A DNA stretch of 32,000 nt. Origin: Kiritimatiella glycovorans. GTDB lineage: Bacteria > Verrucomicrobiota > Kiritimatiellia > Kiritimatiellales > Kiritimatiellaceae. A program made the translations under genes and the position numbers. Of this stretch, positions 1,345 through 27,469 are shown piece by piece; the first letter of the stretch is position 1; every line of letters begins with the position of its first letter. The DNA lies in assembly GCF_001017655.1 (NCBI RefSeq), contig NZ_CP010904.1, positions 2,730,001 to 2,762,000 of the forward strand, read 5' to 3'. Under the pieces are notes generated by a model that had not been told where the DNA came from, made no database searches, and saw nothing but the letters and a program-made list of their open reading frames with translations.

Positions 1345-3111
1345 TCAGAAGGACCAGATCACCGGTGCGAGGCCGACGCTGATGACGCCGAACAGCACAT
1401 TGAGCGCGAACCCGACCCGGAAGTAATCCGTAAAGCGGTAGCCCCCCGGCCCGTAGACCATCAGGTTGGTCTGGTAGCCGACCGGCGTGGCGAAACTTGC
1501 CGAGGCGGCCACGGCCACGCACATCACGAAGGGCAGCGGGCTGACGCCCAGGTTGCCGGCCATGGTCACCGCGACCGGAAAGATCAGCGCGGCCGCGGCG
1601 TTGTTCGTGATCAGCTCGGTGAACAGCGAGGTCGCCACGTAAACCCCCGCCAGCGCCAGCCACGGGTGGTTCCCCGCCGCGGCCAGCAGGCCTTCCGCGA
1701 TCCATCCGGCGGCTCCGGTTTGGTCGAGCGCGCGCCCCATCGCCAGCGCCGAGGCGATCACCAGCAGCACACTCCACTCGATGTTCGTGCGCGCCCGGCC
1801 CGGCGAGCAGCACCCGGTCAGCAGCATCAGCGCCGCGGCCAGCATCGCCGCCTGGAGCATGCTCAGCCAGCCGAACGCCGCGGCGGCCACCATGCCGGCA
1901 AAAATCAATCCGGCCGCGGGCGCGCGCGAAAACCGCACGGGCCGGGAGTCCTCGACTTCGCTGACGAGGTAGAAATCGCGCGAATCGCGCTGCCGCGGCG
2001 CGAATCCCGCATGCGCCTCCACCAGCAGCGTATCGCCCGGCCGCAGTACGATATCGCCGATCCGCCCCGGAATACGTTCTCCGCGGCGCGCCACGGCAAT
2101 CACCGCGGCGTTGTACCGGTCGCGGAACCGCCCCGCCCGGATACTGCGGCCCAGCAGCGGACAATGGTCCGAGACCACCACCTCCACCAGCCGCCGCTCG
2201 CGGTCCTCGCCGTCGAGCTTGAATACCTGGTCCGGCGCGGCCTGCAGCCCGCGCCGGGCGCGCAGGTCGCGGATCGACTCCACACTCCCCGCGAACACCA
2301 GCCGGTCGCGCTCGCGCAGCTCCGTATCCGGCGGCGGCGCCTGGATCAGGTGATCGCCGCGCACGATCTCGACGAGGTACCCGCCGGGCAGGTGGCGCAG
2401 CCCCGCGTCCTCGATCGTTTTCCCCGCCAGCGCGCTGCCTCCGGCGACCTCCATCTCCAGCGTGTACTCGCGCGTGTCGCCGAAGAGCCGGTCCGTTCCC
2501 TCGCGGTCGGGAATCATGCGGCGCCCGACGGTGGCCAGGTAGATCACGCCCGCGAGCGCGCAGGGCAACCCCAGCGCGGTGATCTCGAACACCCCCATGC
2601 CGCGCCCGAGGCGGTCCTGCATCAGACCGCTGACCACCAGGTTGGTGCTGGTGCCGATCAGCGTGCAGACGCCGCCGAAGATCGACGCGTAGCTCAGCGG
2701 CAACATGAACTTCGCCGGTCTGAAATCCAGACTCCGGCACCACTGCCGCACCACCGGGATGAATAGCGCCACCACCGGGGTGTTGTTCAGAAACGCGCTC
2801 AGCCCCATCACCGGCGCCATCAGCCGGAGCTGGCCGCCCCGTTCCGAAGACGGCCTCCCCAGCACGTGGTGACCGATCCAGAAGAGCGCCCCGGTCTCCT
2901 GGATTCCCGCCACCACGACATACAGCGTGCCCACCGTGATTACCCCCGGCGAACTGAACCCGGCCAGCGCCTCGCCGGGACCGAGCACCCCGGTCACCAG
3001 CAGCACCGCCAACCCGCCGAGAAAGACGAAATCCGCCGGCCAGCGCGCCATGGCCAGCAGGAGAAAGACTCCCGCGACCACGGAAACGGTGATGACGGCG
3101 TCCGGGGTCAT
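1345..3111 (-). CDS. SLC13/DASS-type anion permease with two central TrkA-C domains (putative sulfate or dicarboxylate transporter)
   Basis: 588-aa ORF with hydrophobic multi-pass N- and C-terminal halves. Two soluble TrkA-C-like segments lie between them (LEMEVAGGSALAGKTIEDAGLR..., VEVVVSDHCPLLGRSIRAGRFRDRY...). It sits between cysQ and sat on the same strand. Confidence 0.75.
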   Translation of the reverse strand: MTPDAVITVSVVAGVFLLLAMARWPADFVFLGGLAVLLVTGVLGPGEALAGFSSPGVITVGTLYVVVAGIQETGALFWIGHHVLGRPSSERGGQLRLMAPVMGLSAFLNNTPVVALFIPVVRQWCRSLDFRPAKFMLPLSYASIFGGVCTLIGTSTNLVVSGLMQDRLGRGMGVFEITALGLPCALAGVIYLATVGRRMIPDREGTDRLFGDTREYTLEMEVAGGSALAGKTIEDAGLRHLPGGYLVEIVRGDHLIQAPPPDTELRERDRLVFAGSVESIRDLRARRGLQAAPDQVFKLDGEDRERRLVEVVVSDHCPLLGRSIRAGRFRDRYNAAVIAVARRGERIPGRIGDIVLRPGDTLLVEAHAGFAPRQRDSRDFYLVSEVEDSRPVRFSRAPAAGLIFAGMVAAAAFGWLSMLQAAMLAAALMLLTGCCSPGRARTNIEWSVLLVIASALAMGRALDQTGAAGWIAEGLLAAAGNHPWLALAGVYVATSLFTELITNNAAAALIFPVAVTMAGNLGVSPLPFVMCVAVAASASFATPVGYQTNLMVYGPGGYRFTDYFRVGFALNVLFGVISVGLAPVIWSF

Positions 3112-3252: not shown

Positions 3253-4074
3253 TCACAGAACCCCCGGCACGGCGGCGATGAAGTACGGGTTGAGGAGGTC
3301 CTGCTTGTTGTAGCGCAGCGGTACGTCCGTCCCGTGCTGCAGGACCACGCCGCCCGCGGCTTCGACGACGGCCTGCGCGGCGGCGGTGTCCCATTCCATC
3401 GTGGGCGCAATACGGGGATACACATCCGCCGCGCCCTCGGCGACCAGGCAGAGCTTGAGCGAACTGCCCTTCGACACCAGTTCGGCCGGCCCGTATTGGG
3501 CCTCGAGTTCGGCAATAAACTGTTCCGTGGCCTCGTTGCGGTGAGAGCGGGAGGCGACCACGCGGATGCCGCCCGGGTCCCCCGGCCCCTCGCCGAGCGT
3601 TGGCAGCGCCGCTTCCTCGAGCGCACCGGGGAGATCGTCCGCCGAATGGAAGTGCGTGCCCTTCAGGAGCCTCCAGGCCCCTTCGCCCGCGACCCCGAGA
3701 TAGGCCGTGTTCAGCACGGGCGCGTAGACGGCCCCCATCACCGGCACACCGCTTTCGATCAGGGCGATGTTGACCGTGAATTCGCCGTTCTTTTTGATGA
3801 ATTCCTTTGTTCCGTCGAGCGGATCGACCAGCCAGAATCGTTCCCAGTCCTTCCGTTCCGCATAAGGGATCTCCGCGCTCTCTTCCGACAGGACCGGGAT
3901 TCCCGTGGGTTCAAGTTTCTTCAGGATGATGTCGTGCGACGCGCGGTCCGCCTCCGTCAGCGGCGAATCGTCGGCCTTGTGCTCCACGTCGAAATCGCGC
4001 GCGTAGACCTCCAGGATCGCCGCGGTGGCCTCGAGTTCGGCTTCAAGCAGCAGTCTCAGCTGTTCAGAGTTCAT
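3253..4074 (-). CDS. cysQ: 3'(2'),5'-bisphosphate nucleotidase CysQ (inositol monophosphatase family)
   Basis: 273 aa with IMPase/CysQ motifs (SPLTEADRASH, WLVDPLDGTKEF, VASRSH). A GAGGAG RBS lies 6-7 nt upstream of the ATG at 4074. Confidence 0.85.
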   Translation of the reverse strand: MNSEQLRLLLEAELEATAAILEVYARDFDVEHKADDSPLTEADRASHDIILKKLEPTGIPVLSEESAEIPYAERKDWERFWLVDPLDGTKEFIKKNGEFTVNIALIESGVPVMGAVYAPVLNTAYLGVAGEGAWRLLKGTHFHSADDLPGALEEAALPTLGEGPGDPGGIRVVASRSHRNEATEQFIAELEAQYGPAELVSKGSSLKLCLVAEGAADVYPRIAPTMEWDTAAAQAVVEAAGGVVLQHGTDVPLRYNKQDLLNPYFIAAVPGVL

Positions 4075-4089
4075 CGATGCTCCTCAGTT

Positions 4090-5115
4090 TTTGGGGGCGG
4101 GGGAACGGCGCTGCGCGCCTCGGGGGAAACGTGGCAACGGCGCTGCGCGCCTCGTGGGAACGCTTCGCTCGTGAAAACGGCGCTGCGCGCCTCGTAGGAA
4201 ACGGCCTTCGGCCTCGAAACAACGCTGCGCTCGTGGGAACGACATTCCCCCCGATTGCCACGATCTTCCTCGATTGCCACGAGGCCCGTCAGGGCCGTTG
4301 ACACGATCTTCCACGCTTCGCTCGTGAAAACGGCCTTCGGCCTCGAAACAACGCTGCGCTCGTGGGAACGACATTCCCCCCGATTGCCACGATCTTCCTC
4401 GATTGCCACGAGGCCCGTCAGGGCCGTTGACACGATCTTCCACGCTTCGCTCGGGGCAACGGCCTTCGGCCTCGGGGGGAACGTGGCAACGGCGCTGCGC
4501 GCCTCGTGAAAACGCTGCGCTCGTGAGGACGCTTCGCTCGAGGCAACGGCGCTGCGCGCCTCGTGGGAAACGGCCTTCGGCCTCGAAACAACGCTGCGCT
4601 CGTGGGAACGACATTCCCCCCGATTGCCACGATCTTCCTCGATTGCCACGAGGCCCGTCAGGGCCGTTGACACGATCTTCCACGCTTCGCTCGTGAAAAC
4701 GGCCTTCGGCCTCGGGGGGAACGTGGCAACGGCGCTGCGCGCCTCGGGGAAACGCTGCGCTCGTGAGAACGGCGCTGCGCGCCTCGGGGCAACGCTTCGC
4801 TCGGGGCAACGGCACGTCCCCCGACTGCCACGAGGCCCGAGAGGGCCGTTGACACGACTTCCCCCCGATTGCCACGAGGCCCGTAAGGGCCGTTGACACG
4901 ATCTTCCACGCTTCGCTCGGGGCAACGGCGCTGCGCGCCTCGGGGCAACGCTTCGCTCGGGGAAACGGCACGTCCCCCGACTGCCACGAGGCCCGAGAGG
5001 GCCGTTGACACGACTTCCCCCCGATTGCCACGAGGCCCGTAAGGGCCGTTGACACGACTTCCCCCCGACTTCCTCGAGGCCCGTCAGGGCCGTTGCCACG
5101 ACTCTCCCCCCGACT
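4090..5115 (-). repeat. Hairpin-module array 1 (about 1.0 kb; strand given is the one carrying the GNA triloops)
   Basis: Plus strand is a continuous concatenation of four triloop modules: GGCGCTGCGCGCC (8 by eye), GGCCTTCGGCC (5), GCTTCGC (8) and GCTGCGC (5). They are joined by linkers such as TCGTGGGAAAC, TCGTGAAAAC and TCGGGGCAAC. There are also 8 GGCCC-N4-GGGCC hairpins (loops GTCA, GTAA, GAGA). A 122-bp block is repeated identically at 4203, 4332 and 4572. The region is open in several frames on both strands, so it is not coding. Confidence 0.9.
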
Positions 5116-5233
5116 CATATCTCTCACTCAACCCGGACAGGCTCCCGCCCTCGGTCGATCGGGATCGCTTTCCCGAAACCTTCCCTGCGTGTCTTCAAAT
5201 GTCGGCGGGAACTCACGGTTCTCGCTTTGGTCT

Positions 5234-5800
5234 TCAGCCCCGGCGCCGCTCCAGCGGATGGCGGTCGTCGGTACTGACCGCCCGGGCGTCGAACTCGAGT
5301 TCGATGGTGCGCCCGAGCATTTCGAGAAGCACCTGCACGCGGCGGGTGGCGGACATGACGTTCGTCACCCGGACCCGCAGTCCCTGCAGGCGCCCCTCAC
5401 AGATCGTCACTTCCTCGCCGGGACGCGGGAGGTCCTCGATGACCGCCGTCTCGTCGACGCCGAGATCGCGGCGAAGGTCTTGAATAAATTCTTCCGGGAT
5501 GTCCGGTGTCTGCTCGCCGAAGTGGACGAGTCCCCGCACGCCGGGGGCGTAGCCGACCCCGCGCCACTCGTGCCGGCGGTCGAAGTGTGCAAAGACATAT
5601 CCCGGGAACAGCGCCTCCTGGAACCAGACGGGACCGCGTACCGTTTTCTTGCGAAAGCGCATTTGAGGTCCGAACACCTCGAATCCGCGCTCCTTAAGAA
5701 TCTTCCCCGCAATCCCCTCGCGACGGGTCTGCGTACGCACGCAATACCAGCGGCGTTCTTTCCCCTCCATCCCCGCCTTCATGTCCTCCATGCCCTTCAT
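5234..5800 (-). CDS. Specialised NusG-family paralog (RfaH/UpxY-like transcription antiterminator)
   Basis: NGN-like N-terminus (RRWYCVRTQTRREGIAGKILKERGFEVFGPQ, LFPGYVFAHF) and a KOW-like C-terminus (GEEVTICEGRLQGLRVRV). The first ATG is at 5800; the track start at 5806 is TTG. About 188 aa and standalone, not in the secE-nusG-rplK context. Confidence 0.7.
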   Translation of the reverse strand: MKGMEDMKAGMEGKERRWYCVRTQTRREGIAGKILKERGFEVFGPQMRFRKKTVRGPVWFQEALFPGYVFAHFDRRHEWRGVGYAPGVRGLVHFGEQTPDIPEEFIQDLRRDLGVDETAVIEDLPRPGEEVTICEGRLQGLRVRVTNVMSATRRVQVLLEMLGRTIELEFDARAVSTDDRHPLERRRG

Positions 5801-5812
5801 GGTCAATCTCTC

Positions 5813-6295
5813 TTAACGGTCGATCATCTTCATCACCAGCGGGAGCACGGTGGTGCCCTTCCGATGCCAGTTTTCCAGGTGTTCGACCTTCTCTTCCAGA
5901 AACGGGCGCTGCGCCTCCGGCATTGCGCCGACCAGTTCCCGCATACGCTTCAGGCGCTGTTCGCCGCTCTCCAGGTGCGGCTGGAGTTCTTCATCGACGA
6001 ATCCGGCGGCGATCCTGCGCAGCTGATCCTCCGCCACGTAATAGTCGCGGCGGGAGCCCGGGAGGTAGACCGGTTTCACGGCGCGGAATGAGCGCAGTAT
6101 GCGCAGGCCCTGGCTGACCGAGCCCTTACTGATGTTGAGGCGCGCCATGAGGTCGTCAATGCAGAGCGGTTCCGGGGAGATGAACAGGAGCCCGTAGAGT
6201 TCGCCCACCGAGCGGGGAAGATTGAGCATCCCGGCCATACGAACGAAGAGTTCGATCACCTCGCGCTCCAGATCGCTGATTGTGCGCTGTTCCAT
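5813..6295 (-). CDS. GbsR/MarR-family winged-helix transcriptional regulator
   Basis: Core ELYGLLFISPEPLCIDDLMARLNISKGSVSQGLRILRSFRAVKPVYLPGSRRDYYVAE matches the GbsR-type HTH pattern. I prefer the ATG at 6295 (MEQRTISDLE...) to the TTG at 6385, which overlaps the AT-rich palindrome. Confidence 0.7.
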   Translation of the reverse strand: MEQRTISDLEREVIELFVRMAGMLNLPRSVGELYGLLFISPEPLCIDDLMARLNISKGSVSQGLRILRSFRAVKPVYLPGSRRDYYVAEDQLRRIAAGFVDEELQPHLESGEQRLKRMRELVGAMPEAQRPFLEEKVEHLENWHRKGTTVLPLVMKMIDR

Positions 6296-6383
6296 CTTTG
6301 TGTCCACGGGCGTCCCTCCCGCGCGGGAGAGTGGCGGCATCTCATGCTTATGCGCCTGTATAGGACCGATTTGAAAGAGATGC

Positions 6384-6419
6384 AACCATATCGTTCAATT
6401 ATTATTGAACATTATGGTT
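6384..6419. promoter_or_regulatory. AT-rich imperfect palindrome, candidate operator/promoter of the GbsR-like regulator
   Basis: AACCATATCGTTCAAT-TATT-ATTGAACATTATGGTT has 16-nt arms matching at 14/16. It lies in a conspicuously AT-rich gap (6386-6473) of a GC-rich genome, directly upstream of the minus-strand regulator gene. Confidence 0.4.
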
Positions 6420-6473: not shown

Positions 6474-7439
6474 CTACTCAACCTCCACCCCTCTGATCGC
6501 GGCGATGCCGAGCGCGAGCACCGCGACAAGGCAGGCGGCGGCGTAGGAGAGCACGGAACATGTGTACGACCACGGAACGCGGCCGCCGCCGGCGAGCCCG
6601 TCGACCACCCAGAAGTGCTGCCAGTCGGGGATGACGGCGTAGAGCACCCCCGCGATAAGATGAGTATCGGCGTGCCGGCCAAACAGGTAATACGAACTCA
6701 ATCCGAGCAGAAAGATCAATGTGACCGCGAACAGCGTGGGCAGCGTATCGAGCCGCACCGAGATGGCCAGCGCGATCGCCGAAAGCAGAAGCACCGCTGC
6801 GCCCACCAGCGTGGTCACCGGCCACAGCCTAAGGTCATAGGCCCCGCCGAACGCAGTCCATCCGCCCTGTGTATCCAGGAAACCCACAAAGACATAAGCG
6901 GCCGCCGCCGCCGCGACCGTCCCGGAAAAAGCCGCCGCCGGAAAGGACCGCCGCGTTGCGTAATTCAGCACCCCTCCGAGCAGGCATCCCGCCGCCGGGA
7001 CCGCCAGCAGCGGTACGCCCGCCCACCCGTCGAAGTGGAACGAAGGATGCGCCATGCGCGCACTCATGATTACCGCCATCGACATCGCCGCGCCGAACAG
7101 GACCAGCACCGCGCCCACCCCGAAGGCCTTGCCGAGAAAGAAGAGGGCGCGATTGACGGGCTTGCTCAGGATCCCGGACGCCGTGCCGCCCCGCAACTCG
7201 TGCGCGAGCGTCGTTCCCGCGGCGTAAGCGCCGAGCAGGAGACCGCTCACCAGAAACACCGCCAGGCCGCTGTCGCGCACCATCCGCTCCGACTCGCCAA
7301 GCGTATACAGGGAGAACAGCGGCAACAGTCCTACCAGCAGGATGCCAAGCGTCGTCACCAGCATCGTCACCGGCTGACGCACGACCTCCCGGACCGTCAA
7401 CCCGGCCACGACGAAGAACTGTCGGAATAGGATCGTCAT
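6474..7439 (-). CDS. Multi-pass membrane protein, ABC-2-type transporter permease-like (no ATPase partner in window)
   Basis: About 321 aa from the ATG at 7439 (MTILFRQFFVVAGLTVREVV...), hydrophobic throughout. The track ORF extends to 7736 only because it reads into array 2; that N-terminal 99 aa is the repetitive RP-rich array translation. Confidence 0.55.
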   Translation of the reverse strand: MTILFRQFFVVAGLTVREVVRQPVTMLVTTLGILLVGLLPLFSLYTLGESERMVRDSGLAVFLVSGLLLGAYAAGTTLAHELRGGTASGILSKPVNRALFFLGKAFGVGAVLVLFGAAMSMAVIMSARMAHPSFHFDGWAGVPLLAVPAAGCLLGGVLNYATRRSFPAAAFSGTVAAAAAAYVFVGFLDTQGGWTAFGGAYDLRLWPVTTLVGAAVLLLSAIALAISVRLDTLPTLFAVTLIFLLGLSSYYLFGRHADTHLIAGVLYAVIPDWQHFWVVDGLAGGGRVPWSYTCSVLSYAAACLVAVLALGIAAIRGVEVE

Positions 7440-7489
7440 GGATTTCACAAAACAGGATGTAGCATGGAAGAAACCGCGAAACAACAGAG

Positions 7490-8210
7490 GGTTCGGGGAA
7501 ATCGCGGGAACGGCCTTCGGCCTCGGAGGGGGAACGTGGAAACGGCGCTGCGCGCCTCGTGGGGAACGTGGAAACGGCGCTGCGCGCCTCGTGGGAACGC
7601 TGCGCTCGGGGAAACGGCCTTCGGCCTCGGAACAACGCTTCGCTCGTGGGAACGGCGCTGCGCGCCTCGTGGGAAACGGCCTTCGGCCTCGAAACAACGC
7701 TGCGCTCGTGGAAACAGCACGTCCCCCGACTGCCACGATCTTCCCCGATTGCCACGAGGCCCGTCAGGGCCGTTGCCACGACTCTCTTCCCGACTTCCTC
7801 GAGGCCCGTCAGGGCCGTTGCCACGGTTTCCCCGATTGCCACGATCTTCCACGCTTCGCTCGTGGGAACGGCGCTGCGCGCCTCGGGGAAACGCTTCGCT
7901 CGAGTAAACGGCCTTCGGCCTCGGGGGGATCGTGGAAACGGCCTTCGGCCTCGGAACAACGCTTCGCTCGTGGGAACGGCGCTGCGCGCCTCGTGGGAAA
8001 CGGCCTTCGGCCTCGGAACAACGCTTCGCTCGTGAAAACGACATTCCCCCCGACTTTCTCGAGGCCCCTGGGCCGTTGCCACGACTCCCCCCGACTTTCA
8101 CGAGGCCCGTCAGGGCCGTTGCCACGACTTCCCCCCCCCACTGCCACGAGGCCCGAGAGGGCCGTTGCCACGACTCCCCCCCCGACTTCCCCCGATCTCC
8201 ACGATTCCGG
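7490..8210 (-). repeat. Hairpin-module array 2 (about 0.72 kb; same plus-strand orientation as array 1)
   Basis: Same module set: GGCGCTGCGCGCC (5), GGCCTTCGGCC (6), GCTTCGC (5), GCTGCGC (2). There are 4 intact and 1 degenerate GGCCC-N4-GGGCC hairpins, mostly in the right third (8040-8200). Poly-C runs there vary in length. A 58-bp stretch (GGCGCTGCGCGCCTCGTGGGAAACGGCCTTCGGCCTCGAAACAACGCTGCGCTCGTGG) is identical to array 1. Confidence 0.9.
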
Positions 8211-8331
8211 CGACTCATTTTGATCTTACTTTACCACCGGCACGGCATCTGACATGATGGGGGAGTGACGGAAAACTGAACCGGGACGGCCCGGATGAAA
8301 TGGTTGAAGTGGACTGAAAGGAGGACACGGA

Positions 8332-8682
8332 ATGGCGGATTATCATGAAGATCAACTCAGCGAAGCGTCGATGAACGCCTCGCGCGCATTGAAGAGTGTG
8401 AAGGAGGAGATCGAGGCGGTCGACTGGTACAACCAGCGTGTGGACGCTACGAATGATCAGGAGCTTGCGAAGATTCTGGCCCACAACCGCGACGAAGAGA
8501 TTGAGCACGCCTGCATGGTGCTGGAGTGGCTGCGACGCAACATGCCCGGCTGGGACGAGCAGATGAAAACCTATCTGTTTACGCAGGGCGACATCACTCT
8601 TCTCGAAGAAGAGGGTGAAGGCGGCGAAGAGGGCGGAGAGGCCCCCGCGGGCGGCGATCTGGCCATCGGAAAAATCGAGTAA
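8332..8682 (+). CDS. Encapsulated ferritin-like cargo protein (EncFtn) with C-terminal encapsulin targeting peptide
   Basis: 116 aa with the ferritin-like EEIEH di-iron motif region (NRDEEIEHACMVLEWLRR). A Gly/Glu-rich linker precedes the C-terminal GGDLAIGKIE, which resembles family-1 cargo-loading peptides. AAAGGAGG RBS lies upstream. The gene sits immediately 5' of the shell gene. Confidence 0.85.
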   Translation: MADYHEDQLSEASMNASRALKSVKEEIEAVDWYNQRVDATNDQELAKILAHNRDEEIEHACMVLEWLRRNMPGWDEQMKTYLFTQGDITLLEEEGEGGEEGGEAPAGGDLAIGKIE

Positions 8683-8697
8683 GAGGGGAGGCAACGC

Positions 8698-9492
8698 ATG
8701 GATAATCTCAGGAAAGAACTCGCGCCGATCTCCGAAGAGGGTTGGCAGGAAATCAATGAGCAGGCCCGGCGCGTACTGCGCAACAATCTCAGCGCCCGCC
8801 GTTTCGCGGACGTCGACGGGCCGAAGGGCTGGGACTGCACTTCCGTCTCGCTCGGTCGCCTGAATGTTCCGGAAAAGCAGGCGGACCATGACGTGCGCTA
8901 CGGGGTCCACCTCGTGCAGCCGCTCGTCGAGGCACGGGTGTCGTTCAAGCTGAAGACGTGGGAACTCGACAACGCCGTTCGTGGCGCGGAGGACATCGAC
9001 CTCGAACCGCTCGAGGACGCCGCCGCGAAAATCGCCGCCTTCGAGGACGCCGCCGTGTATTACGGGTTCGATGCGGGCTGCATCCGGGGTCTCAAGGCGG
9101 AGTCGGATCACAAGGCGCTCAAGTGGCCGGAAAAGGCCGAGGACGCGCTCGGGACCGTTCAGGACGGCGTTCAGGCGCTGCGAGCCGCATCGGTCGAAGG
9201 ACCGTACAACCTGGTCATCGACGCCAAGCGGTGGAAGGCCGTGGAAAGCCATGTCGGCGGCTATCCGCTCAGGAACCGCATTCAGGACGCCCTCGGCGGA
9301 AAGGTCATCGTATCACCCAACGTCAAAAACGCCTTCCTCGTCTCCGGACGCGGCGGCGATTTCCGACTGACGCTCGGCGCCGATCTCTCGATCGGCTACG
9401 AAGGCCACGATACCGAATCGGTCCAGCTCTACCTCACCGAATCGTTCACCTTCCAGGTGCTCGACCCGGCGGCGGCGGTCGTGCTCGCGTAA
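8698..9492 (+). CDS. Family 1 encapsulin nanocompartment shell protein (HK97-fold, linocin M18-like)
   Basis: 264 aa. MDNLRKELAPISEEGWQEINEQARRVLRNNLSARRFADVDGPKGWD... matches the conserved family-1 encapsulin N-terminus. Length is typical. The start is 16 nt after the EncFtn stop, with a GAGGGGAGG RBS. Confidence 0.9.
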   Translation: MDNLRKELAPISEEGWQEINEQARRVLRNNLSARRFADVDGPKGWDCTSVSLGRLNVPEKQADHDVRYGVHLVQPLVEARVSFKLKTWELDNAVRGAEDIDLEPLEDAAAKIAAFEDAAVYYGFDAGCIRGLKAESDHKALKWPEKAEDALGTVQDGVQALRAASVEGPYNLVIDAKRWKAVESHVGGYPLRNRIQDALGGKVIVSPNVKNAFLVSGRGGDFRLTLGADLSIGYEGHDTESVQLYLTESFTFQVLDPAAAVVLA

Positions 9493-9517
9493 GCGGGCGG
9501 GAAAAAACCGCGGCAGG

Positions 9518-10240
9518 CGGGGAGGTCGTGGAAATCGGGGGGATCGTGGCAATCGGGGAAGTCGTGTCAACGGCCCTCACGGGCCTCGTGGCAGTCGGGG
9601 GAAATGTCGTTCCCCCGAGGCGCGCAGCGCCGTTGCCACGTTCCCCCCCCGAGGCCGAAGGCCGTTGCCTCGAGCGCAGCGTTCCCCCGAGGCGCGCAGC
9701 GCCGTTGCCTCGAGCGAAGCGTGGAAGATCGTGGCAATCGGGGAAGTCGTGTCAACGGCCCTTACGGGCCTCGTGGCAGACGGGGGAAATGCCGTTCCCA
9801 CGAGGCGCGCAGCGCCGTTTTCACGTTTCCCCCCCGAGGCCGAAGGCCGTTGCCTCGAGCGAAGCGTGGAAAATCGTGGCAGTCGAGGAAGTCGTGTCAA
9901 CGGCCCTTACGGGCCTCGTGGCAGACGGGGGAAATGCCGTTCCCACGAGGCGCGCAGCGCCGTTTTCACGTTCCCCCCCCGAGGCCGAAGGCCGTTTCCA
10001 CGAGCGAAGCGTGGAAGATCGTGGCAATCGAGGAAGTCGTGTCAACGGCCCTCTCGGGCCTCGTGGCAGTCGGGGGAAATGCCGTTCCCACGAGGCGCGC
10101 AGCGCCGTTTTCACGTTTCCCCCCCGAGGCCGAAGGCCGTTTCCACGAGCGAAGCGTCCCCCCCGAGCGAAGCGTTGCCCCGAGGCGCGCAGCGCCGTTG
10201 CCACGTTCCCCCCTCACGTTCCCCCGAGCCACGCAGCGTT
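9518..10240 (+). repeat. Hairpin-module array 3 (about 0.72 kb; inverted relative to arrays 1 and 2)
   Basis: Plus strand carries the reverse complements of the array 1/2 modules: GGCGCGCAGCGCC (6), GGCCGAAGGCC (4), GCGAAGC (5), GCGCAGC (1). It also has 4 GGCCC-N4-GGGCC hairpins (loops TCAC, TTAC, TTAC, TCTC). A 145-bp higher-order unit starts at 9746, 9891 and 10036; the first two copies differ at about 6 positions. Confidence 0.9.
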
Positions 10241-10268
10241 TGTCTGCCAAGAACCCTGAGGAATCTCC

Positions 10269-12188
10269 ATGAACTGGTCTGAACTGCTGAACGAATCCCA
10301 GGCCGCCGCGGTCACGGCGCCCGACGGACCCGTACTCGCCATTGCCGCCGCGGGTACCGGCAAGACACGCACGCTTACCTGCCGGGTCGCCCACCTGGTC
10401 TGCGAACGTGAAATCCCGCCCGACCGAATTCTGCTGCTGACGTTCACCAACAAGGCGGCCGACGAGATGCTCGAACGGGCGCGTTCGATGGCGGGCGACG
10501 AAGTCAGCGGGCTTTGGGGCGGGACGTTTCATCATCTTGCCAACCGGCTGCTGCGGCGACACGCCGACCGGCTCGGGTTCGGGCTCGACTACACCATCCT
10601 CGACTCCGACGACACGAAAAAGCTGCTGCGCACCGTCACGCTCGAACTGGGCCTGAAGGGAAAGCACTTCCCGAAACCCGGCGTGCTCTCCAGCGTGTTC
10701 GGTGTGGCCGCGAATACCGAGCGCGGGATCGAGGACCTCGCCCGGGAGTGGTTCGAGGACAGCGACGTGCAGCCCGAACAGGTGGTCGACGTCTACCATG
10801 AATACGAACAGCGTAAACGGTCGCTCAACTCGATGGATTTCGACGATCTTCTCATTCACGCCCTGAACCTGATCCGCGATCAGCAGGACCTGCGCGAACA
10901 GTACCAGGAACGTTTTCGCTATATCCTGGTGGACGAATACCAGGACACCAGCGCCATCCAGGCGGAGTGGGTCGATCTACTCGCCGGCGGACACCGCAAT
11001 CTGATGGTGGTCGGCGACGACTTCCAGAGCATCTACTCGTGGCGCGGCGCGAATTACCGCAATATCCTGCATTTCCAGGAACGCTACCCGGACGCCCGGG
11101 TCTATAAACTTGAGACCAATTACCGGAGCAGCCCCGAGATCCTCGAGGTCGCCAACCGCTGCATCGCCGGTAACCCGCACCAGTTTCAGAAAAACCTGCG
11201 CGCCGTGCGCGAGCACGCTCCCAGGCCCCGGCTAGCCCGCATGCTCGACAGCCGCCGGCAGGCGAGGTACGTCCTTCAGCGCGTACGCGAGTTCGAGCGC
11301 AACGGCGTTTCGCTCGAAGACATGGCCGTCCTCTACCGCTCCCACTTCCACGCCCTCGACCTGCAGCTCGAACTCACCCGCGAAAACCTCCCCTTTACCC
11401 TGACCTCCGGCGTCCGCTTCTTCGAGCAGGCCCACATAAAAGACGTCTGCACCCTGCTGCGACTGCTGGAGAATCCGGGCGACGAACTGGCGTTCGCACG
11501 CCTGCTCGAAATGTTCCCCAAAGTCGGCGCCAAAACGGCGCAGAAGATTTGGGATAAGATCGGGCGCCGGTTCCGTGCACGCTCTCCCGACGAGTGTGTG
11601 CGGGTGCGCGATTCGCTTCCGAGCGCCGCCAAGGCCTCGTGGATGGCCGCCGAACCGATCTTCCTCGCCTACCGCGAGGAAGGACTGGACGAGGATCCGG
11701 GCGAGATCGTCTTTCGCTTCGTCAGGGAATTCTACCGCGAATACGCCGTGGAGACCTTCGATAACGCCCGCAACCGGCTCGAAGATATCGATGCGCTGAT
11801 CGACTTCACGTCGCGCTACACCAGTACGCAGCAATTCCTCAGCGAGACCGCCCTCCTGAGCAGCCTCGAGTCCACCACCTCCGGTCCCGGCGCCGACGCC
11901 GGCGGACTCCGCCTCAGCACGATCCACCAGGCCAAGGGGCTCGAATGGAAGATCGTCTTCGTGATCTGGCTCAGCGAGGAGATGTTCCCCAGTGCCCGCG
12001 CGGAAGCCGACACGGAAAAACTGGCCGAGGAACGCCGGCTGTTCTACGTCGCCACCACCCGCGCCGAAGACCGCCTGTTTCTCTGCACCCCGGAACGCAA
12101 GCAGACCCGCGACGGCGGACTGATGCCCTGCGAACCCTCGCGCTTCCTCCGCGAACTCCCCGCCGAATGCGTCGAACTGGAACTCTAG
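10269..12188 (+). CDS. UvrD/PcrA/Rep-family ATP-dependent DNA helicase
   Basis: 639 aa with a Walker A motif (AAAGTGKTRTL), LVDEYQDTS (motif II), SIYSWRGA and the C-terminal TIHQAKGLEW and YVATTRAEDRL motifs of SF1 UvrD-like helicases. Confidence 0.85.
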   Translation: MNWSELLNESQAAAVTAPDGPVLAIAAAGTGKTRTLTCRVAHLVCEREIPPDRILLLTFTNKAADEMLERARSMAGDEVSGLWGGTFHHLANRLLRRHADRLGFGLDYTILDSDDTKKLLRTVTLELGLKGKHFPKPGVLSSVFGVAANTERGIEDLAREWFEDSDVQPEQVVDVYHEYEQRKRSLNSMDFDDLLIHALNLIRDQQDLREQYQERFRYILVDEYQDTSAIQAEWVDLLAGGHRNLMVVGDDFQSIYSWRGANYRNILHFQERYPDARVYKLETNYRSSPEILEVANRCIAGNPHQFQKNLRAVREHAPRPRLARMLDSRRQARYVLQRVREFERNGVSLEDMAVLYRSHFHALDLQLELTRENLPFTLTSGVRFFEQAHIKDVCTLLRLLENPGDELAFARLLEMFPKVGAKTAQKIWDKIGRRFRARSPDECVRVRDSLPSAAKASWMAAEPIFLAYREEGLDEDPGEIVFRFVREFYREYAVETFDNARNRLEDIDALIDFTSRYTSTQQFLSETALLSSLESTTSGPGADAGGLRLSTIHQAKGLEWKIVFVIWLSEEMFPSARAEADTEKLAEERRLFYVATTRAEDRLFLCTPERKQTRDGGLMPCEPSRFLRELPAECVELEL

Positions 12189-12229
12189 TGTCACTCAGGT
12201 CTCAAGTTTCAGGTCTCCCACTCCCTCTT

Positions 12230-12253
12230 ACTCTGACTCTGACTCTGACTCTG
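12230..12253. repeat. Hexanucleotide microsatellite (ACTCTG)x4
   Basis: Four perfect tandem ACTCTG units flanked by related CTCTTA and ATTCTT hexamers. They lie in the helicase-flippase intergenic region, just right of a CTCAAGTTTCAGG motif (12210-12222). Confidence 0.8.
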
Positions 12254-12283
12254 ATTCTTCCCCACGTCCCTTCTTCCCGCCCC

Positions 12284-25782: not shown

Positions 25783-25879
25783 GATTAGGAAGTGTCCCGT
25801 TGACTGTTGAAACTTGAAGGCGGTCTCCTGAGCGTCCATGTTGGACGCTCGGGGCAAACCAACCCGAAAGGAGACCGCC

Positions 25880-27469
25880 ATGAGTGACAATAGCGTCCTT
25901 GAAGCCCTTGGACAAGTTGAACCGTCTGCAGCAGGAGATGTTTTCCGTGACTGGCTGCGTGGTGAAATGCGAACCCTGATCGCCGATATTCTGGCTGAAG
26001 AGGTCACAGAATTGTGTGGTCCGGCCTACAAGCCGGCAGGGGACAGAGGCTGCCGACGTGCCGGCGGAACCCGCGTAGGACTTCGAATTGACGGTATTGA
26101 TGAGGAGATCCGCAAGCCGCGTGTACGTCGCCATGAGGCAGACACATCGAAGGAGGTCAGGCTTAAAAGTTACGACGCGGTCAACAGGGCCGACGACCTT
26201 CGTGACCGTATCTTGCGTGCCACAGCTGCCGGAGTCAGTTCACGTGATCAGAAAACCTTGTATCCCGATTCAGCGCCCGGACGCAGCAGGGTTTCCCGCG
26301 CCTGGATTGTCGAGGGCCGACAGCGCATACAGAAGCTCCGTGACCGCGACCTGAAGTCCGAGAGGTTCTTCTGCATGCTGCTGGACGGCATTGTACTGTC
26401 CGAGGATCTCAGCGCCATTGTGGGGCTGGGCATTACGCTGGACGGCCGCAAAGTTATGCTGGATTTTGAAATAGGCGCACAGGAATCGACAGAAGTGTGT
26501 GACGCATTGCTCGACCGCAGCCGTTCTCATTATGGCCGCATTCCGACCGCGGACGGCGTGGCAGCCGTCCCTCCCGAGTCGATATCCGACGCATTTTCGG
26601 GCACTGGGAGGGTCGGGTGCCACCCCGACCGAAAAGGGTGAAGCCATAATGAGAATCGCTGGCTCGACCGGCTTGTCCACCGCGGTCTTGAGTTCGAGGG
26701 CGATCCGTTGGCGGTTCTCGACGGTTCTCGGGCACTTCATAACAGCGTCTTGAAGCATTTTCCGCGAGCGCGCATTCAACGATGCCTGGTGCATAAGGAA
26801 CGAAATATTAAGCGTTGTCTCTCCAGGCGTCATCACGGCAGCGTGAGCGACGTTTTCAAGCGTCTCCGCTCCGTGGAAGGCGAAGAAGCCGGACGTGAAG
26901 CACTCGCCGATCTGGAACGCTTTCTGAGCCGGCACAGCCACAAGGCCCTGGAATCCCTGCACGAGGCCGGTGAGGAGCTCATTACGGTTCACAAGCTGAA
27001 TGCGCCGTCCACTCTACACACCACGTTGACGAACACAAACTGCATCGAGAACCCGTTCCGAAACACACGCGCAAAAATCGGGCGGGTGAAGCGTTGGCGC
27101 GCAGAGACGGATCAGGCGGAACGCTGGCTGGCCTATTCGCTTCTGAGGGCCGAGAAAGGGTTCCGTCGAATCAAAGGCTATCGTCAGATCCCGGTGCTTT
27201 TGAAATCCCTGGGCTGGCCATCGGAAGCTGTTGAGGCGTCGCTCCGCTCCGCCCTTGGCCCTCCGGGCCATCCCGCCTCCGGCGGGAACGGGCTCCACTC
27301 CACGACGCCTCACCCCCAGGCAGAGAGCGAAGCGAACTGCCGAACAGGGACTGGACAAGTGAATGACAAGGAACTACATCGAAATGAAGACCGAGACCGC
27401 CAACGAGTTTCAACAGGATTCGGGACATCCCCACGGATTATGTTCACCCCTTCATGCTCTTTATGGTGA
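25880..27469 (+). pseudogene. IS256-family (Mutator-like DDE) transposase, disrupted by MITE insertion
   Basis: ATG at 25880 after an AAAGGAG RBS. IS256 signatures are present: LLDGIVL..., AVLDGSRALHNSVLKHFPRARIQRCLVHKERN, and TNCIENPFRN. The frame is the same before (to 26517) and after (from 26663) the insert. Reading into the MITE hits a stop at 26641. Confidence 0.85.
26518..26661. mobile_element. 144-bp MITE, copy 2 (9-bp TSD GCTCGACCG), inserted in the transposase ORF
   Basis: Left TIR CAGCCGTTCTCATTATGGC, right end GCCATAATGAGAATCGCTG. The target GCTCGACCG is duplicated at 26509-26517 and 26662-26670. The duplication repeats the LDR codons of the transposase on both sides. Confidence 0.85.

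What the first reader, a model, noticed from the sequence alone, without database searches (positions are those of the whole stretch)
7490..10240. Encapsulin-EncFtn operon is bracketed by arrays 2 and 3 as large inverted repeats with mirrored inner termini
Array 2 (left) and array 3 (right) are reverse complements in module content. Their operon-proximal ends are near-mirror copies: CCCCCGATCTCCACGATTCC at about 8187-8208, versus the reverse complement of GGAGGTCGTGGAAATCGGGGGG at about 9519-9540, which is CCCCCCGATTTCCACGACCTCC. The GGCCC-N4-GGGCC module is enriched at the operon-facing side of array 2 and is the first module of array 3. The 1.3-kb cassette therefore has a composite-transposon-like or invertible-segment-like geometry. 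Arrays 1 and 2 are direct repeats sharing a 58-bp identical stretch, and they flank the 2.3-kb NusG-paralog/GbsR/permease block. Recombination between inverted arrays would flip the encapsulin operon. Recombination between direct arrays would delete or amplify the regulator block.
Basis: partly seen in the sequence, partly recalled or inferred. Interest (0 to 1): 0.7.

Follow-up and report, generated by a model that had tools for sequence, protein, structure and literature searches.

The report
Polar hairpin-repeat arrays around encapsulin operon
The encapsulin operon of Kiritimatiella glycovorans does sit between two inverted 0.7-kb repeat arrays, but these belong to a genome-wide family of non-coding, REP/BIME-like hairpin arrays that point the same way as the gene next to them, so the layout looks like a by-product of divergent transcription and not a transposon or a gene switch.

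Summary
Arrays A1 (4080-5120, -), A2 (7490-8210, -) and A3 (9519-10240, +) are built from the same strand-exclusive modules, so A2 and A3 are inverted around EncFtn-encapsulin and A1 and A2 are direct. The window is K. glycovorans L21-Fru-AB.

All modules derive from one REP-like mini-palindrome, CGAG-stem-G(N)NA loop-stem-CGTT: 60 forward copies and 16 inverted copies (the GGCCC-N4-GGGCC module). Every array has the same polarity, and its tail lies 5-50 nt from the start codon of a co-oriented gene (CysQ, a membrane protein, UvrD). The "mirrored inner termini" are this generic head motif, found 19 times within 2 mismatches.

Array-derived ORFs are annotated as hypothetical proteins at three further distant loci of this genome, and nowhere else among 1.84 billion representative proteins. 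They lack codon-position GC periodicity.

I found no recombinase, transposase or target-site duplication at the cassette. Relatives' EncFtn-encapsulin operons have no arrays. Identical tracts are longer within arrays than between them.

A1 lies directly after a conserved ops-like element downstream of an RfaH-like NusG paralog, so it is probably a transcribed leader.

Homologous inversion or deletion remains physically possible and untested. I read this as a new variant of REP/BIME-type repeats, of moderate interest.

The parts
4080..5120 (-). Array A1. 1.04-kb mosaic of REP-like hairpin units with higher-order repeats of 129, 240 and 156 bp at 96% identity. Its head is at 5120 and its tail ends 5 nt before the CysQ ATG.
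7490..8210 (-). Array A2. 0.72 kb, same orientation as A1. Its head is at 8210, facing the EncFtn promoter region. Its tail is about 50 nt from the ATG of the membrane-protein gene (7439).
9519..10240 (+). Array A3. 0.72 kb, inverted relative to A1 and A2. A 145-bp higher-order repeat occurs 3.3 times at 95% identity. Its head is 26 nt after the encapsulin stop codon and its tail is 28 nt before the UvrD ATG. There are no stop triplets in any sense frame.
8211..8331 (.). Unique, less GC-rich spacer between the A2 head and the EncFtn start. It is the presumed promoter region of the encapsulin operon. No consensus sigma-70 promoter was found.
8332..8682 (+). EncFtn (encapsulin-associated ferritin-like cargo protein).
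8698..9492 (+). Family 1 encapsulin shell protein, 100% identical to the K. glycovorans protein.
7789..7928 (.). A2 arm of the best inverted repeat with A3 (partner 9645-9784). 140 nt at 91%. The longest identical core is 35 bp (7828-7862 vs 9711-9745).
9645..9784 (.). A3 arm of the best inverted repeat with A2.
4545..4605 (.). 61-bp tract in A1 that is identical to 7651-7711 in A2 (direct orientation).
5138..5149 (-). ops-like element GGCGGGAGCCTG, 18 nt upstream of the A1 head. It is conserved (GGCGGNAGCCTG) downstream of the orthologous NusG paralog in 5 of 6 Kiritimatiellales loci, where it lies 18-21 nt before the glmS ATG.
5234..5806 (-). RfaH-like specialised NusG paralog. The NGN domain is present. 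The best NCBIfam hits are RfaH and UpxY, both below cut-off.
5813..6385 (-). GbsR/CudC-like HTH regulator, the conserved partner of the NusG paralog (58% identity to L023). The true start is probably the ATG near 6295.
6474..7439 (-). Membrane protein with no family hit. It is the gene that starts at the tail of A2.
3253..4074 (-). CysQ (3'(2'),5'-bisphosphate nucleotidase), the gene that starts at the tail of A1.
10269..12188 (+). UvrD/PcrA-type helicase, the gene that starts at the tail of A3.

Best explanation
The three arrays are non-coding members of a repeat family that is dispersed in the K. glycovorans chromosome and was found in no other organism.

Shown:
- Each array is a mosaic of one REP-like mini-palindrome unit, (C)CACGAG - GC-rich stem - G(N)NA loop - stem - CGTT. 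In this window the unit occurs about 60 times forward (H1, H2, h3/h4) and 16 times inverted (the GGCCC-N4-GGGCC unit).
- The arrays contain higher-order units that are tandemly duplicated.
- The arrays are polar. The head is rich in inverted units, the tail is made of forward units, and the tail lies 5-50 nt from the start codon of a gene in the same orientation.

Inferred:
- The arrays grew in place by tandem duplication.
- A2 and A3 are mirror images because the two transcription directions diverge at 8.2-8.3 kb. The encapsulin operon is not a cassette delimited by terminal repeats.
- The arrays are transcribed in the sense direction as long, highly structured leaders or intercistronic spacers. 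A1 lies between a conserved ops-like loading site for the neighbouring RfaH-like NusG paralog and CysQ.
- They act, if at all, as hairpin elements of the REP/BIME kind: transcript stabilisation, attenuation or pausing, or protein or topology sites.
- Homologous recombination between arrays is an incidental liability, not their purpose.
For: Strand-exclusive modules and common polarity of all three arrays.

The consensus of the GGCCC-N4-GGGCC unit, read in reverse complement, is TGCCACGAGGCCC-GtnA-GGGCCGTTGaCACG. This has the same frame as H1, TcCCaCGAGGCGC-GCA-GCGCCGTTncCaCG.

Higher-order repeats of 129, 240, 156 and 145 bp at 95-96% identity. Identical tracts are longer within arrays than between them.

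Array ORFs are annotated as hypothetical proteins L21SP4_02319, _02323 and _02326. Three homologous array ORFs, L21SP4_00612, _01247 and _02129, lie elsewhere on the same 2.95-Mb chromosome. No other organism gave such a hit among 1.84 billion representatives; one further weak hit (P0365) is an unrelated repeat protein whose source I did not look up.

GC at codon positions 1/2/3 is flat in the array ORFs (0.65-0.71), against about 0.67/0.43/0.82 in real genes.

The ops-like GGCGGNAGCCTG element is conserved after the NusG paralog in 5 of 6 relatives. In K. glycovorans it is followed by A1 and then CysQ-CitMHS. In relatives the genes that follow ops include glmS-CitMHS-CysQ.

No recombinase or transposase was found at the cassette.

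The closest EncFtn-encapsulin operon has no arrays.

REP clusters and tandemly reiterated REP dimers, mostly between unidirectional genes, are documented, including in Verrucomicrobia (PMC3733652).
Against: The polarity rule rests on two informative arrays, A1 and A3. A2 lies between divergent genes and fits either way. The chance of full agreement is about 0.25.

A2 sits in a divergent, promoter-type intergenic region, which is unusual for REP elements.

No GTAG tag and no RAYT gene was seen.

Transcription of the arrays is inferred, not shown, and no promoter was identified.

Three of the at least six known arrays lie within 6 kb of each other. That clustering is not explained by a purely dispersed selfish-repeat model.

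The rest of the genome could not be read, so no census of orientation or copy number was possible.
Confidence: 0.62

Rival explanations
1. Recombination substrate. RecA-dependent exchange between A2 and A3 flips the encapsulin operon, and exchange between A1 and A2 deletes or amplifies the NusG-paralog/GbsR/membrane-protein block. This would produce real structural heterogeneity in populations. It is the first reader's mechanism, taken as an actual process and not a designed switch.
For: Inverted homology of 140 nt at 91%, with identical cores of 35 and 33 bp. Direct homology of about 170 nt at 90% with a 61-bp identical core. An inversion would recreate an equivalent layout, with one array after the operon and one in a divergent spacer, so it need not be deleterious (inference).
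Against: About 9% divergence and short identical cores predict low frequencies. A2/A3 is the least homogenised pair, and identical tracts within arrays are much longer. The GC3 skew of the encapsulin gene matches long-term + strand genes. The 265x PacBio assembly closed into one contig, and the paper as searched does not mention any heterogeneity (PMC5148204). An A1-A2 deletion would remove the antiterminator and its ops-like site, which lie upstream of CysQ-CitMHS.
Confidence: 0.15
2. Mobile or programmed cassette. The 1.3-kb operon with its flanking arrays is a composite-transposon-like element, or a site-specific invertible segment whose boundaries are the mirrored inner termini.
For: Inverted arrays with a shared 16-nt core, TCGTGGARATCGGGGG, at both inner ends.
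Against: The core motif is generic, with 19 sites across the arrays. The 20/22-nt termini do not match each other within 3 mismatches without a gap. No transposase, invertase or integrase gene was found in or next to the segment. No target-site duplication is visible. Arrays of the same family occur at distant loci. The nearest relative's operon has no such flanks.
Confidence: 0.03
3. The arrays are protein-coding genes for repetitive Arg/Gly/Pro-rich proteins, as in the GenBank annotation (L21SP4_02319, _02323, _02326).
For: Sense ORFs span A1 (ATG 5118 to TGA 4084) and A2 (ATG 8218 to stop 7445). They end 5-9 nt before the next start codon. Sense-strand stop triplets number 10 against about 57 expected, and A3 has none. 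The higher-order periods of A1 are multiples of 3.
Against: No codon-position GC periodicity. The 145-bp period of A3 shifts the reading frame at every repeat. Several sense frames are open at once. There are no homologues outside this genome. The nucleotide-level palindromes explain the conservation.
Confidence: 0.04
4. Conditional transcription barrier. In the sense orientation the arrays place dozens of ops-type mini-hairpins (GCGAAGC, GCGCAGC, C-GAA-G) in the non-template strand and in the RNA. These cause pausing or attenuation that only RNA polymerase modified by the RfaH-like paralog, loaded at the ops-like site just before A1, can traverse efficiently.
For: The ops-like site is conserved and lies 18 nt before A1. 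h3 followed by GTG (GAGCGAAGCGTG) resembles E. coli ops, GGCGGTAGCGTG, with a one-nucleotide shorter loop (ops sequence from own knowledge). The ops hairpin has G2:C9 and C3:G8 pairs and a G4:A7 pair, and ops-like non-template-strand hairpins are expected to induce pausing (PMC11001881). GCGNAGC and GCGNNAGC are extraordinarily stable DNA mini-hairpins (PMC13037366).
Against: No ops-like site precedes A2 or A3. The resemblance of the modules to ops is partial. Nothing here measures pausing. REP-like selfish spread explains the same sequences more simply.
Confidence: 0.1

Closest known systems
Bacterial interspersed mosaic elements (BIMEs) and REP clusters of Enterobacteria, Pseudomonas and other bacteria
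   Same: Extragenic, GC-rich mini-palindromes of 13-35 nt joined by short conserved linkers. Both orientations of one unit occur within a cluster. Pairs are reiterated in tandem. The clusters lie between genes and are probably transcribed. The family is genome-specific and dispersed.
   Different: The arrays are much longer (0.7-1.0 kb, 20-30 units). Forward units predominate (60:16) instead of regular alternation. Loops are G(N)NA. There is no GTAG tag. No single units occur in the other 29.5 kb of the window. One array lies in a divergent intergenic region.
REPINs with RAYT transposases (Bertels and Rainey 2011; Nunvar 2010)
   Same: In A3 each inverted unit and the following H1 unit form a long imperfect hairpin of about 95 nt (-50 to -59 kcal/mol as RNA), like an inverted REP doublet.
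   Different: The doublet hairpin is not formed in A1 or A2. No RAYT or IS200-like gene is in the window. The units are arrayed, not scattered as doublets.
GTAG- and CGTC-tagged REP superfamilies (Di Nocera et al. 2013, PMC3733652)
   Same: The inverted unit reads TGTC-AACGGCCC-N4-GGGCC.., which recalls the CGTC/TGTC tag, the A/T-started 8-nt arm and the 4-nt loop. CCA-like linkers are present. Large tandem clusters are described for some species, and GTAG REPs abound in the verrucomicrobium Opitutus terrae.
   Different: No GTAG tag. Only 5 bp of the arms pair (..GGGCCTCG where ..GGGCCGTT would be needed). The forward units have 3-nt loops.
RfaH/ops operon-polarity-suppressor system
   Same: A NusG paralog with best hits to RfaH and UpxY. 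A 12-nt GGCGGNAGCCTG element on the sense strand keeps the hairpin-forming positions of E. coli ops. It lies in the leader of a polysaccharide and sulfate-assimilation operon.
   Different: The protein scores below the RfaH family cut-off. Position 6 of the element is variable. In K. glycovorans a 1-kb hairpin array separates the element from the first gene. Function is untested.
Composite transposons and site-specific invertible segments (Hin, Gin, Fim type)
   Same: A gene block lies between inverted repeats.
   Different: No IS elements, transposase, recombinase or target duplication. The repeats are generic mosaic arrays, not defined terminal sites.

Membership tests
BIME / REP cluster | Short GC-rich imperfect palindromes located outside genes | tested here: met
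   Units of 13-35 nt with 2-5 bp GC stems. All lie in three intergenic regions. They lack a coding signature.
BIME / REP cluster | The same unit is present in both orientations within a cluster, joined by conserved linkers | tested here: met
   The GGCCC-N4-GGGCC unit is the reverse complement of the H1 frame. There are 60 forward and 16 inverted units. The linker is CGTT-nCCA-CGAG.
BIME / REP cluster | Regular alternation of orientation (Y/Z pairs) | tested here: not met
   Runs of up to 8 forward units and runs of 3 inverted units occur. Only the 145-bp repeat of A3 has a regular inverted-forward pair.
BIME / REP cluster | Dispersed in many copies over the chromosome | tested here: inconclusive
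   At least 6 arrays are known: locus tags 00612, 01247, 02129 and 02319/23/26.
GTAG/CGTC-tagged REP superfamilies | Unpaired GTAG tag at one end | tested here: not met
   No GTAG or CTAC in the unit consensus sequences.
GTAG/CGTC-tagged REP superfamilies | CGTC/TGTC tag, 8-9 bp stem that starts with A/T pairs, 4-5 nt loop, CCA tail | tested here: inconclusive
   The inverted unit is TGTC-AACGGCCC-N4-GGGCCTCG-TGGCA. The tag, the loop length and the AA start fit, but only 5 bp pair (criteria from PMC3733652).
REPIN/RAYT | Inverted REP doublet that folds into one long hairpin | tested here: inconclusive
   Formed by 3-4 copies in A3 and not in A1 or A2.
REPIN/RAYT | Cognate RAYT (IS200/IS605-like Y1 transposase) gene | not testable with these tools
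   None among the ORFs of the window.
Composite transposon | Flanking IS copies that encode a transposase | tested here: not met
   The arrays carry no coding signature. The only transposase is a split IS256/Mutator gene at 25838-27469.
Composite transposon | Target-site duplication at the outer ends | tested here: not met
   No direct repeat at 7440-7490 versus 10240-10268 by inspection.
Site-specific invertible segment | Recombinase (invertase or integrase) gene within or beside the segment | tested here: not met
   Pfam and NCBIfam scans of the flanking genes.
Site-specific invertible segment | Both orientations present in a population | not testable with these tools
   No read data. The GC3 skew of the encapsulin gene gives no hint of flipping, which is a weak test.
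RfaH/ops-type antitermination (context of A1) | Specialised NusG paralog plus a conserved 12-nt ops-like element on the sense strand of the target leader | tested here: met
   RfaH is the best NCBIfam hit at 79.8 bits, below the cut-off of 144.5. GGCGGNAGCCTG occurs once per locus in 5 of 6 relatives and in the window.
RfaH/ops-type antitermination (context of A1) | Factor recruitment and read-through | not testable with these tools
   Needs transcription assays.
Protein-coding gene (current annotation of the arrays) | Codon-position compositional periodicity and a single conserved reading frame | tested here: not met
   GC1/2/3 is flat. The 145-bp period shifts the frame. Several frames are open.

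The most novel reading that the evidence does not exclude
The arrays are polar, transcribed barriers. They would be stacks of ops-type mini-hairpins (GCGNAGC class) presented in the non-template strand and in the RNA, which slow or attenuate ordinary RNA polymerase. The RfaH-like NusG paralog encoded between A1 and A2 is loaded at the conserved GGCGGNAGCCTG site 18 nt before A1 and licenses read-through into CysQ-CitMHS. A2 and A3 would then insulate the encapsulin operon from its neighbours. This would be a repeat family recruited as a tunable antitermination-dependent gate, and a natural test bed for whether non-template-strand hairpins other than ops control elongation.
Probability: 0.1. 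Interest if true: 0.75.

Novelty: new variant of a known kind. Interest (0 to 1): 0.4.

Why it matters
The striking mirror geometry around a nanocompartment operon is most simply a consequence of polar intergenic repeats. This guards against reading every inverted pair as a switch or a transposon.

The arrays are an undescribed REP/BIME-like family in the phylum Kiritimatiellota. They take up about 8% of this window and are currently mis-annotated as six hypothetical proteins, one of them labelled 'collagen triple helix repeat' in UniRef.

Placing a 1-kb hairpin array directly after a conserved ops-like site gives a concrete, testable system. It could show how specialised NusG paralogs cope with, or exploit, structured leaders. 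It could also show whether such arrays cause rearrangements in a slow-growing anaerobe.

Tried and rejected
Source genome. Exact look-ups of window proteins and of a distant array ORF found nothing. The genome and metagenome scans with CGAGGCCGAAGGCCGTTN{4,5}CGAG returned only 10 and 4 single chance hits, none with further modules. A viral scan with the GGCCC-N4-GGGCC unit gave 2 single hits. blastn of A3 against plasmids gave no match.

RNA families. Rfam gave nothing at gathering or E<=1 thresholds.

Promoters and terminators. The scan found nothing in or next to the arrays beyond shuffle expectation.

Synteny. The nearest UvrD (61-62% identity) and encapsulin (64% identity) relatives share no neighbours at this locus. 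'Same locus without arrays' therefore cannot be judged for A2 and A3.

Coding hypothesis. Rejected on GC1/2/3.

ops-like sites before A2 or A3. None within 1 mismatch.

Long inverted-unit plus H1 hairpin as a universal unit. It holds only in A3.

GC3-skew test for a recent inversion. Negative but weak.

The similarity of the A1 and A3 tails through the first codons of CysQ and UvrD (CTGAGGA-N6-ATGAACT) was noted but judged too short to interpret.


Full report
ORIGIN AND GENES

The encapsulin, UvrD and NusG-paralog proteins of the window are 100% identical to proteins of Kiritimatiella glycovorans L21-Fru-AB, on a 2,949,723-bp contig.

Gene order:
- CitMHS transporter, 1345-3111 (-)
- CysQ, 3253-4074 (-)
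- array A1, 4080-5120
- RfaH-like NusG paralog, 5234-5806 (-)
- GbsR/CudC-like HTH protein, 5813-6385 (-)
- membrane protein, 6474-7439 (-)
- array A2, 7490-8210
- EncFtn, 8332-8682 (+)
- family 1 encapsulin, 8698-9492 (+)
- array A3, 9519-10240
- UvrD/PcrA, 10269-12188 (+)

The genome was assembled from PacBio RSII reads at 265x, so the arrays are not short-read artefacts (PMC5148204). The paper does not mention them.

THE OBSERVATION

TRF finds repeats only in these three places. Every module is strand-exclusive: on the - strand in A1 and A2 and on the + strand in A3. None occurs in the other 29.5 kb. A two-module pattern occurs 13 times against 0 in shuffles.

A2 and A3 share a 140-nt inverted stretch at 91%, and their longest identical tract is 35 bp. 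A1 and A2 share a 61-bp identical tract, not 58 bp.

The quoted inner termini are at 8189-8208 and 9521-9542. They share the core TCGTGGARATCGGGGG. That core belongs to a 19-member motif family spread through all three arrays. The 22-mer at the A3 head matches three internal A1 sites with 3 mismatches. So the geometry is real, but the termini are not specialised ends.

ANATOMY

Read in a common orientation (A3 as given, A1 and A2 reverse-complemented), the arrays are mosaics of two kinds of block.
- Hairpins with G-N-A triloops: H1 GGCGC-GCA-GCGCC, H2 GGCC-GAA-GGCC, h3 GC-GAA-GC, h4 GC-GCA-GC. Each is framed as CGAG...CGTT and linked by nCCA-type spacers.
- Blocks that carry GGCCC-N4-GGGCC.

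The consensus of the second kind, in reverse complement, is TGCCACGAGGCCC-GtnA-GGGCCGTTGaCACG. It has the same frame as H1, TcCCaCGAGGCGC-GCA-GCGCCGTTncCaCG. It is therefore the same unit inverted, with a G-N-N-A loop on its own forward strand.

The window holds 60 forward and 16 inverted units. In A3 an inverted unit and the next H1 fold into a hairpin of about 95 nt, which resembles a REPIN. This does not hold in A1 or A2.

Higher-order repeats of 129, 240, 156 and 145 bp at 95-96% identity show growth by local tandem duplication. Identical tracts within arrays (149, 82, 86 bp) exceed those between arrays (61, 46, 35 bp), which points the same way.

POLARITY

All three arrays start with inverted-unit blocks and end with forward units. 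Each tail lies close to the start codon of a co-oriented gene: CysQ at 5 nt, the membrane protein at about 50 nt, and UvrD at 28 nt. The head of A1, which faces the 3' end of the NusG paralog, is built like the heads of A2 and A3.

The inverted arrangement of A2 and A3 therefore follows from the divergence of transcription at 8211-8331. Only A1 and A3 are informative for this rule, so chance agreement is about 0.25. The rule needs a genome-wide census.

CODING OR NOT

Sense ORFs span A1 and A2, and all three sense frames of A3 lack stop codons. Sense stop triplets number 10 against about 57 expected from composition.

A search of 1.84 billion representative proteins with the translated A3 found seven hits. 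Three are these ORFs, annotated L21SP4_02326, _02319 and _02323. Three are array-type ORFs at distant loci of the same chromosome, L21SP4_00612, _01247 and _02129. One is an unrelated repeat protein. No such ORF was found from any other organism.

The array ORFs lack the GC1/GC2/GC3 periodicity of real genes: they are flat at 0.65-0.71, against about 0.67/0.43/0.82. The 145-bp period of A3 also shifts the frame at each repeat.

The arrays are thus a dispersed, genome-specific, non-coding family that has been mis-annotated as proteins.

COMPARATIVE CONTEXT

The closest EncFtn-encapsulin operon (64% identity, four contigs) has an AT-rich upstream region, a classical terminator, no arrays, and different neighbours. 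UvrD relatives (61-62% identity) share no synteny at this locus.

The GbsR-like and NusG-paralog genes form a conserved pair in Kiritimatiellales. After about 119 bp the pair is followed by glmS, and then either by CitMHS (followed by CysQ where the contig extends) or by sugar-nucleotide and polysaccharide genes.

In 5 of 6 relatives one copy of GGCGGNAGCCTG lies 18-21 nt before the glmS ATG. The window has GGCGGGAGCCTG at 5149-5138 (-). An ATG follows 19 nt later, and A1 begins immediately there.

The element keeps the positions that form the non-template-strand hairpin of E. coli ops: G2:C9, C3:G8 and G4:A7, with the pause at U11 (PMC11001881). The ops sequence GGCGGTAGCGTG is from my own knowledge.

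A1 therefore sits in the leader of the operon that the RfaH-like factor most probably controls. This supports sense transcription of at least this array.

TESTS OF THE CASSETTE OR SWITCH READING

- No recombinase or transposase lies in or beside the segment. A split IS256-type gene lies 16 kb away.
- No target-site duplication is visible.
- The termini are generic.
- The family is dispersed.
- The GC3 skew of the encapsulin gene (-0.168) is like that of other + strand genes, so there is no trace of recent flipping. This test is weak.

Homologous exchange is physically possible. An inversion would recreate an equivalent layout. An A1-A2 deletion would remove the antiterminator and its loading site. 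Neither could be tested without reads.

COMPARISON WITH KNOWN SYSTEMS

The arrays work most like BIMEs and REP clusters: mini-palindromes in both orientations, conserved linkers, tandem reiteration, intergenic location and genome specificity (PMC3733652).

They fail the GTAG tag and regular alternation. They fit the CGTC/TGTC tag only loosely. RAYT association cannot be assessed.

Their loops make GCGNAGC- and C-GNNA-G-type mini-hairpins, which are known to be exceptionally stable in DNA (PMC13037366).

Relatives carry their own unrelated palindromic tandem arrays in intergenic regions (L021, L022). Such arrays may be a trait of the lineage.

VERDICT

The transposon or invertible-segment interpretation is not supported beyond the generic possibility of homologous recombination.

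The best reading is a polar REP/BIME-like repeat family, a new variant of a known kind, of moderate interest. There is a low-probability but attractive link to NusG-paralog-dependent read-through.

Noticed in passing
window 5138-5149 (-); L023 8640, L024 8642, L026 4638, L027 1866, L028 1186: A conserved ops-like element GGCGGNAGCCTG lies just downstream of the RfaH-like NusG paralog in Kiritimatiellales, 18-21 nt before the glmS start in relatives. It is probably the recruitment site of this paralog. It seems undescribed.
   Followed up: partly
window 6393-6410; L023 about 7475-7497; L024 about 7473-7495: An operator-like palindrome GTTCA-N8-TGAAC (window GTTCAATTATTATTGAAC; relatives TGTTCAGTAnATTTTGAACA) lies upstream of the GbsR-like gene that partners the NusG paralog. 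It is conserved across genera.
   Followed up: no
window 4084-5118 (-), 7445-8218 (-), 9604-10272 (+): Array-spanning ORFs are annotated in GenBank as hypothetical proteins L21SP4_02319, _02323 and _02326. Sister arrays are annotated as L21SP4_00612 (UniRef name 'Collagen triple helix repeat'), _01247 and _02129. All lack a coding signature.
   Followed up: yes
window arrays, sense strand: Stop triplets are strongly depleted on the sense strand (10 against about 57 expected; none in A3). The sense ORFs over A1 and A2 terminate 5-9 nt before the next gene's ATG. In A1 the TGA lies inside the CysQ Shine-Dalgarno sequence. This could permit incidental translation through the arrays.
   Followed up: partly
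window 4060-4100 (-) vs 10240-10300 (+): The A1 and A3 tails share the junction CTGAGGA-N6-ATGAACT. There is further similarity in the first codons of CysQ (MNSEQL) and UvrD (MNWSEL). It is too short to interpret.
   Followed up: partly
L021 8060-8566; L022 5164-5309: Kiritimatiellales relatives carry their own unrelated palindromic tandem arrays in intergenic regions between co-directional genes: a 92-bp unit with GTAG/CTAC-flanked palindromes and a scaffold gap inside, and a 71-bp unit repeated 2.1 times.
   Followed up: no
window 25838-27469 (+): An IS256/Mutator-family transposase is split into two ORFs (25838-26641 and 26708-27469). It is either a frameshifted or a decayed IS.
   Followed up: no
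window 12225-12258: A hexanucleotide microsatellite (CTCTGA) repeated 5.7 times lies in the 365-bp spacer after UvrD.
   Followed up: no
window 3253-5806 vs L023 8001-13239: Relative to other Kiritimatiellales, K. glycovorans lacks glmS after the NusG paralog and has CysQ-CitMHS in the opposite order. A1 occupies the position where glmS starts in relatives.
   Followed up: partly
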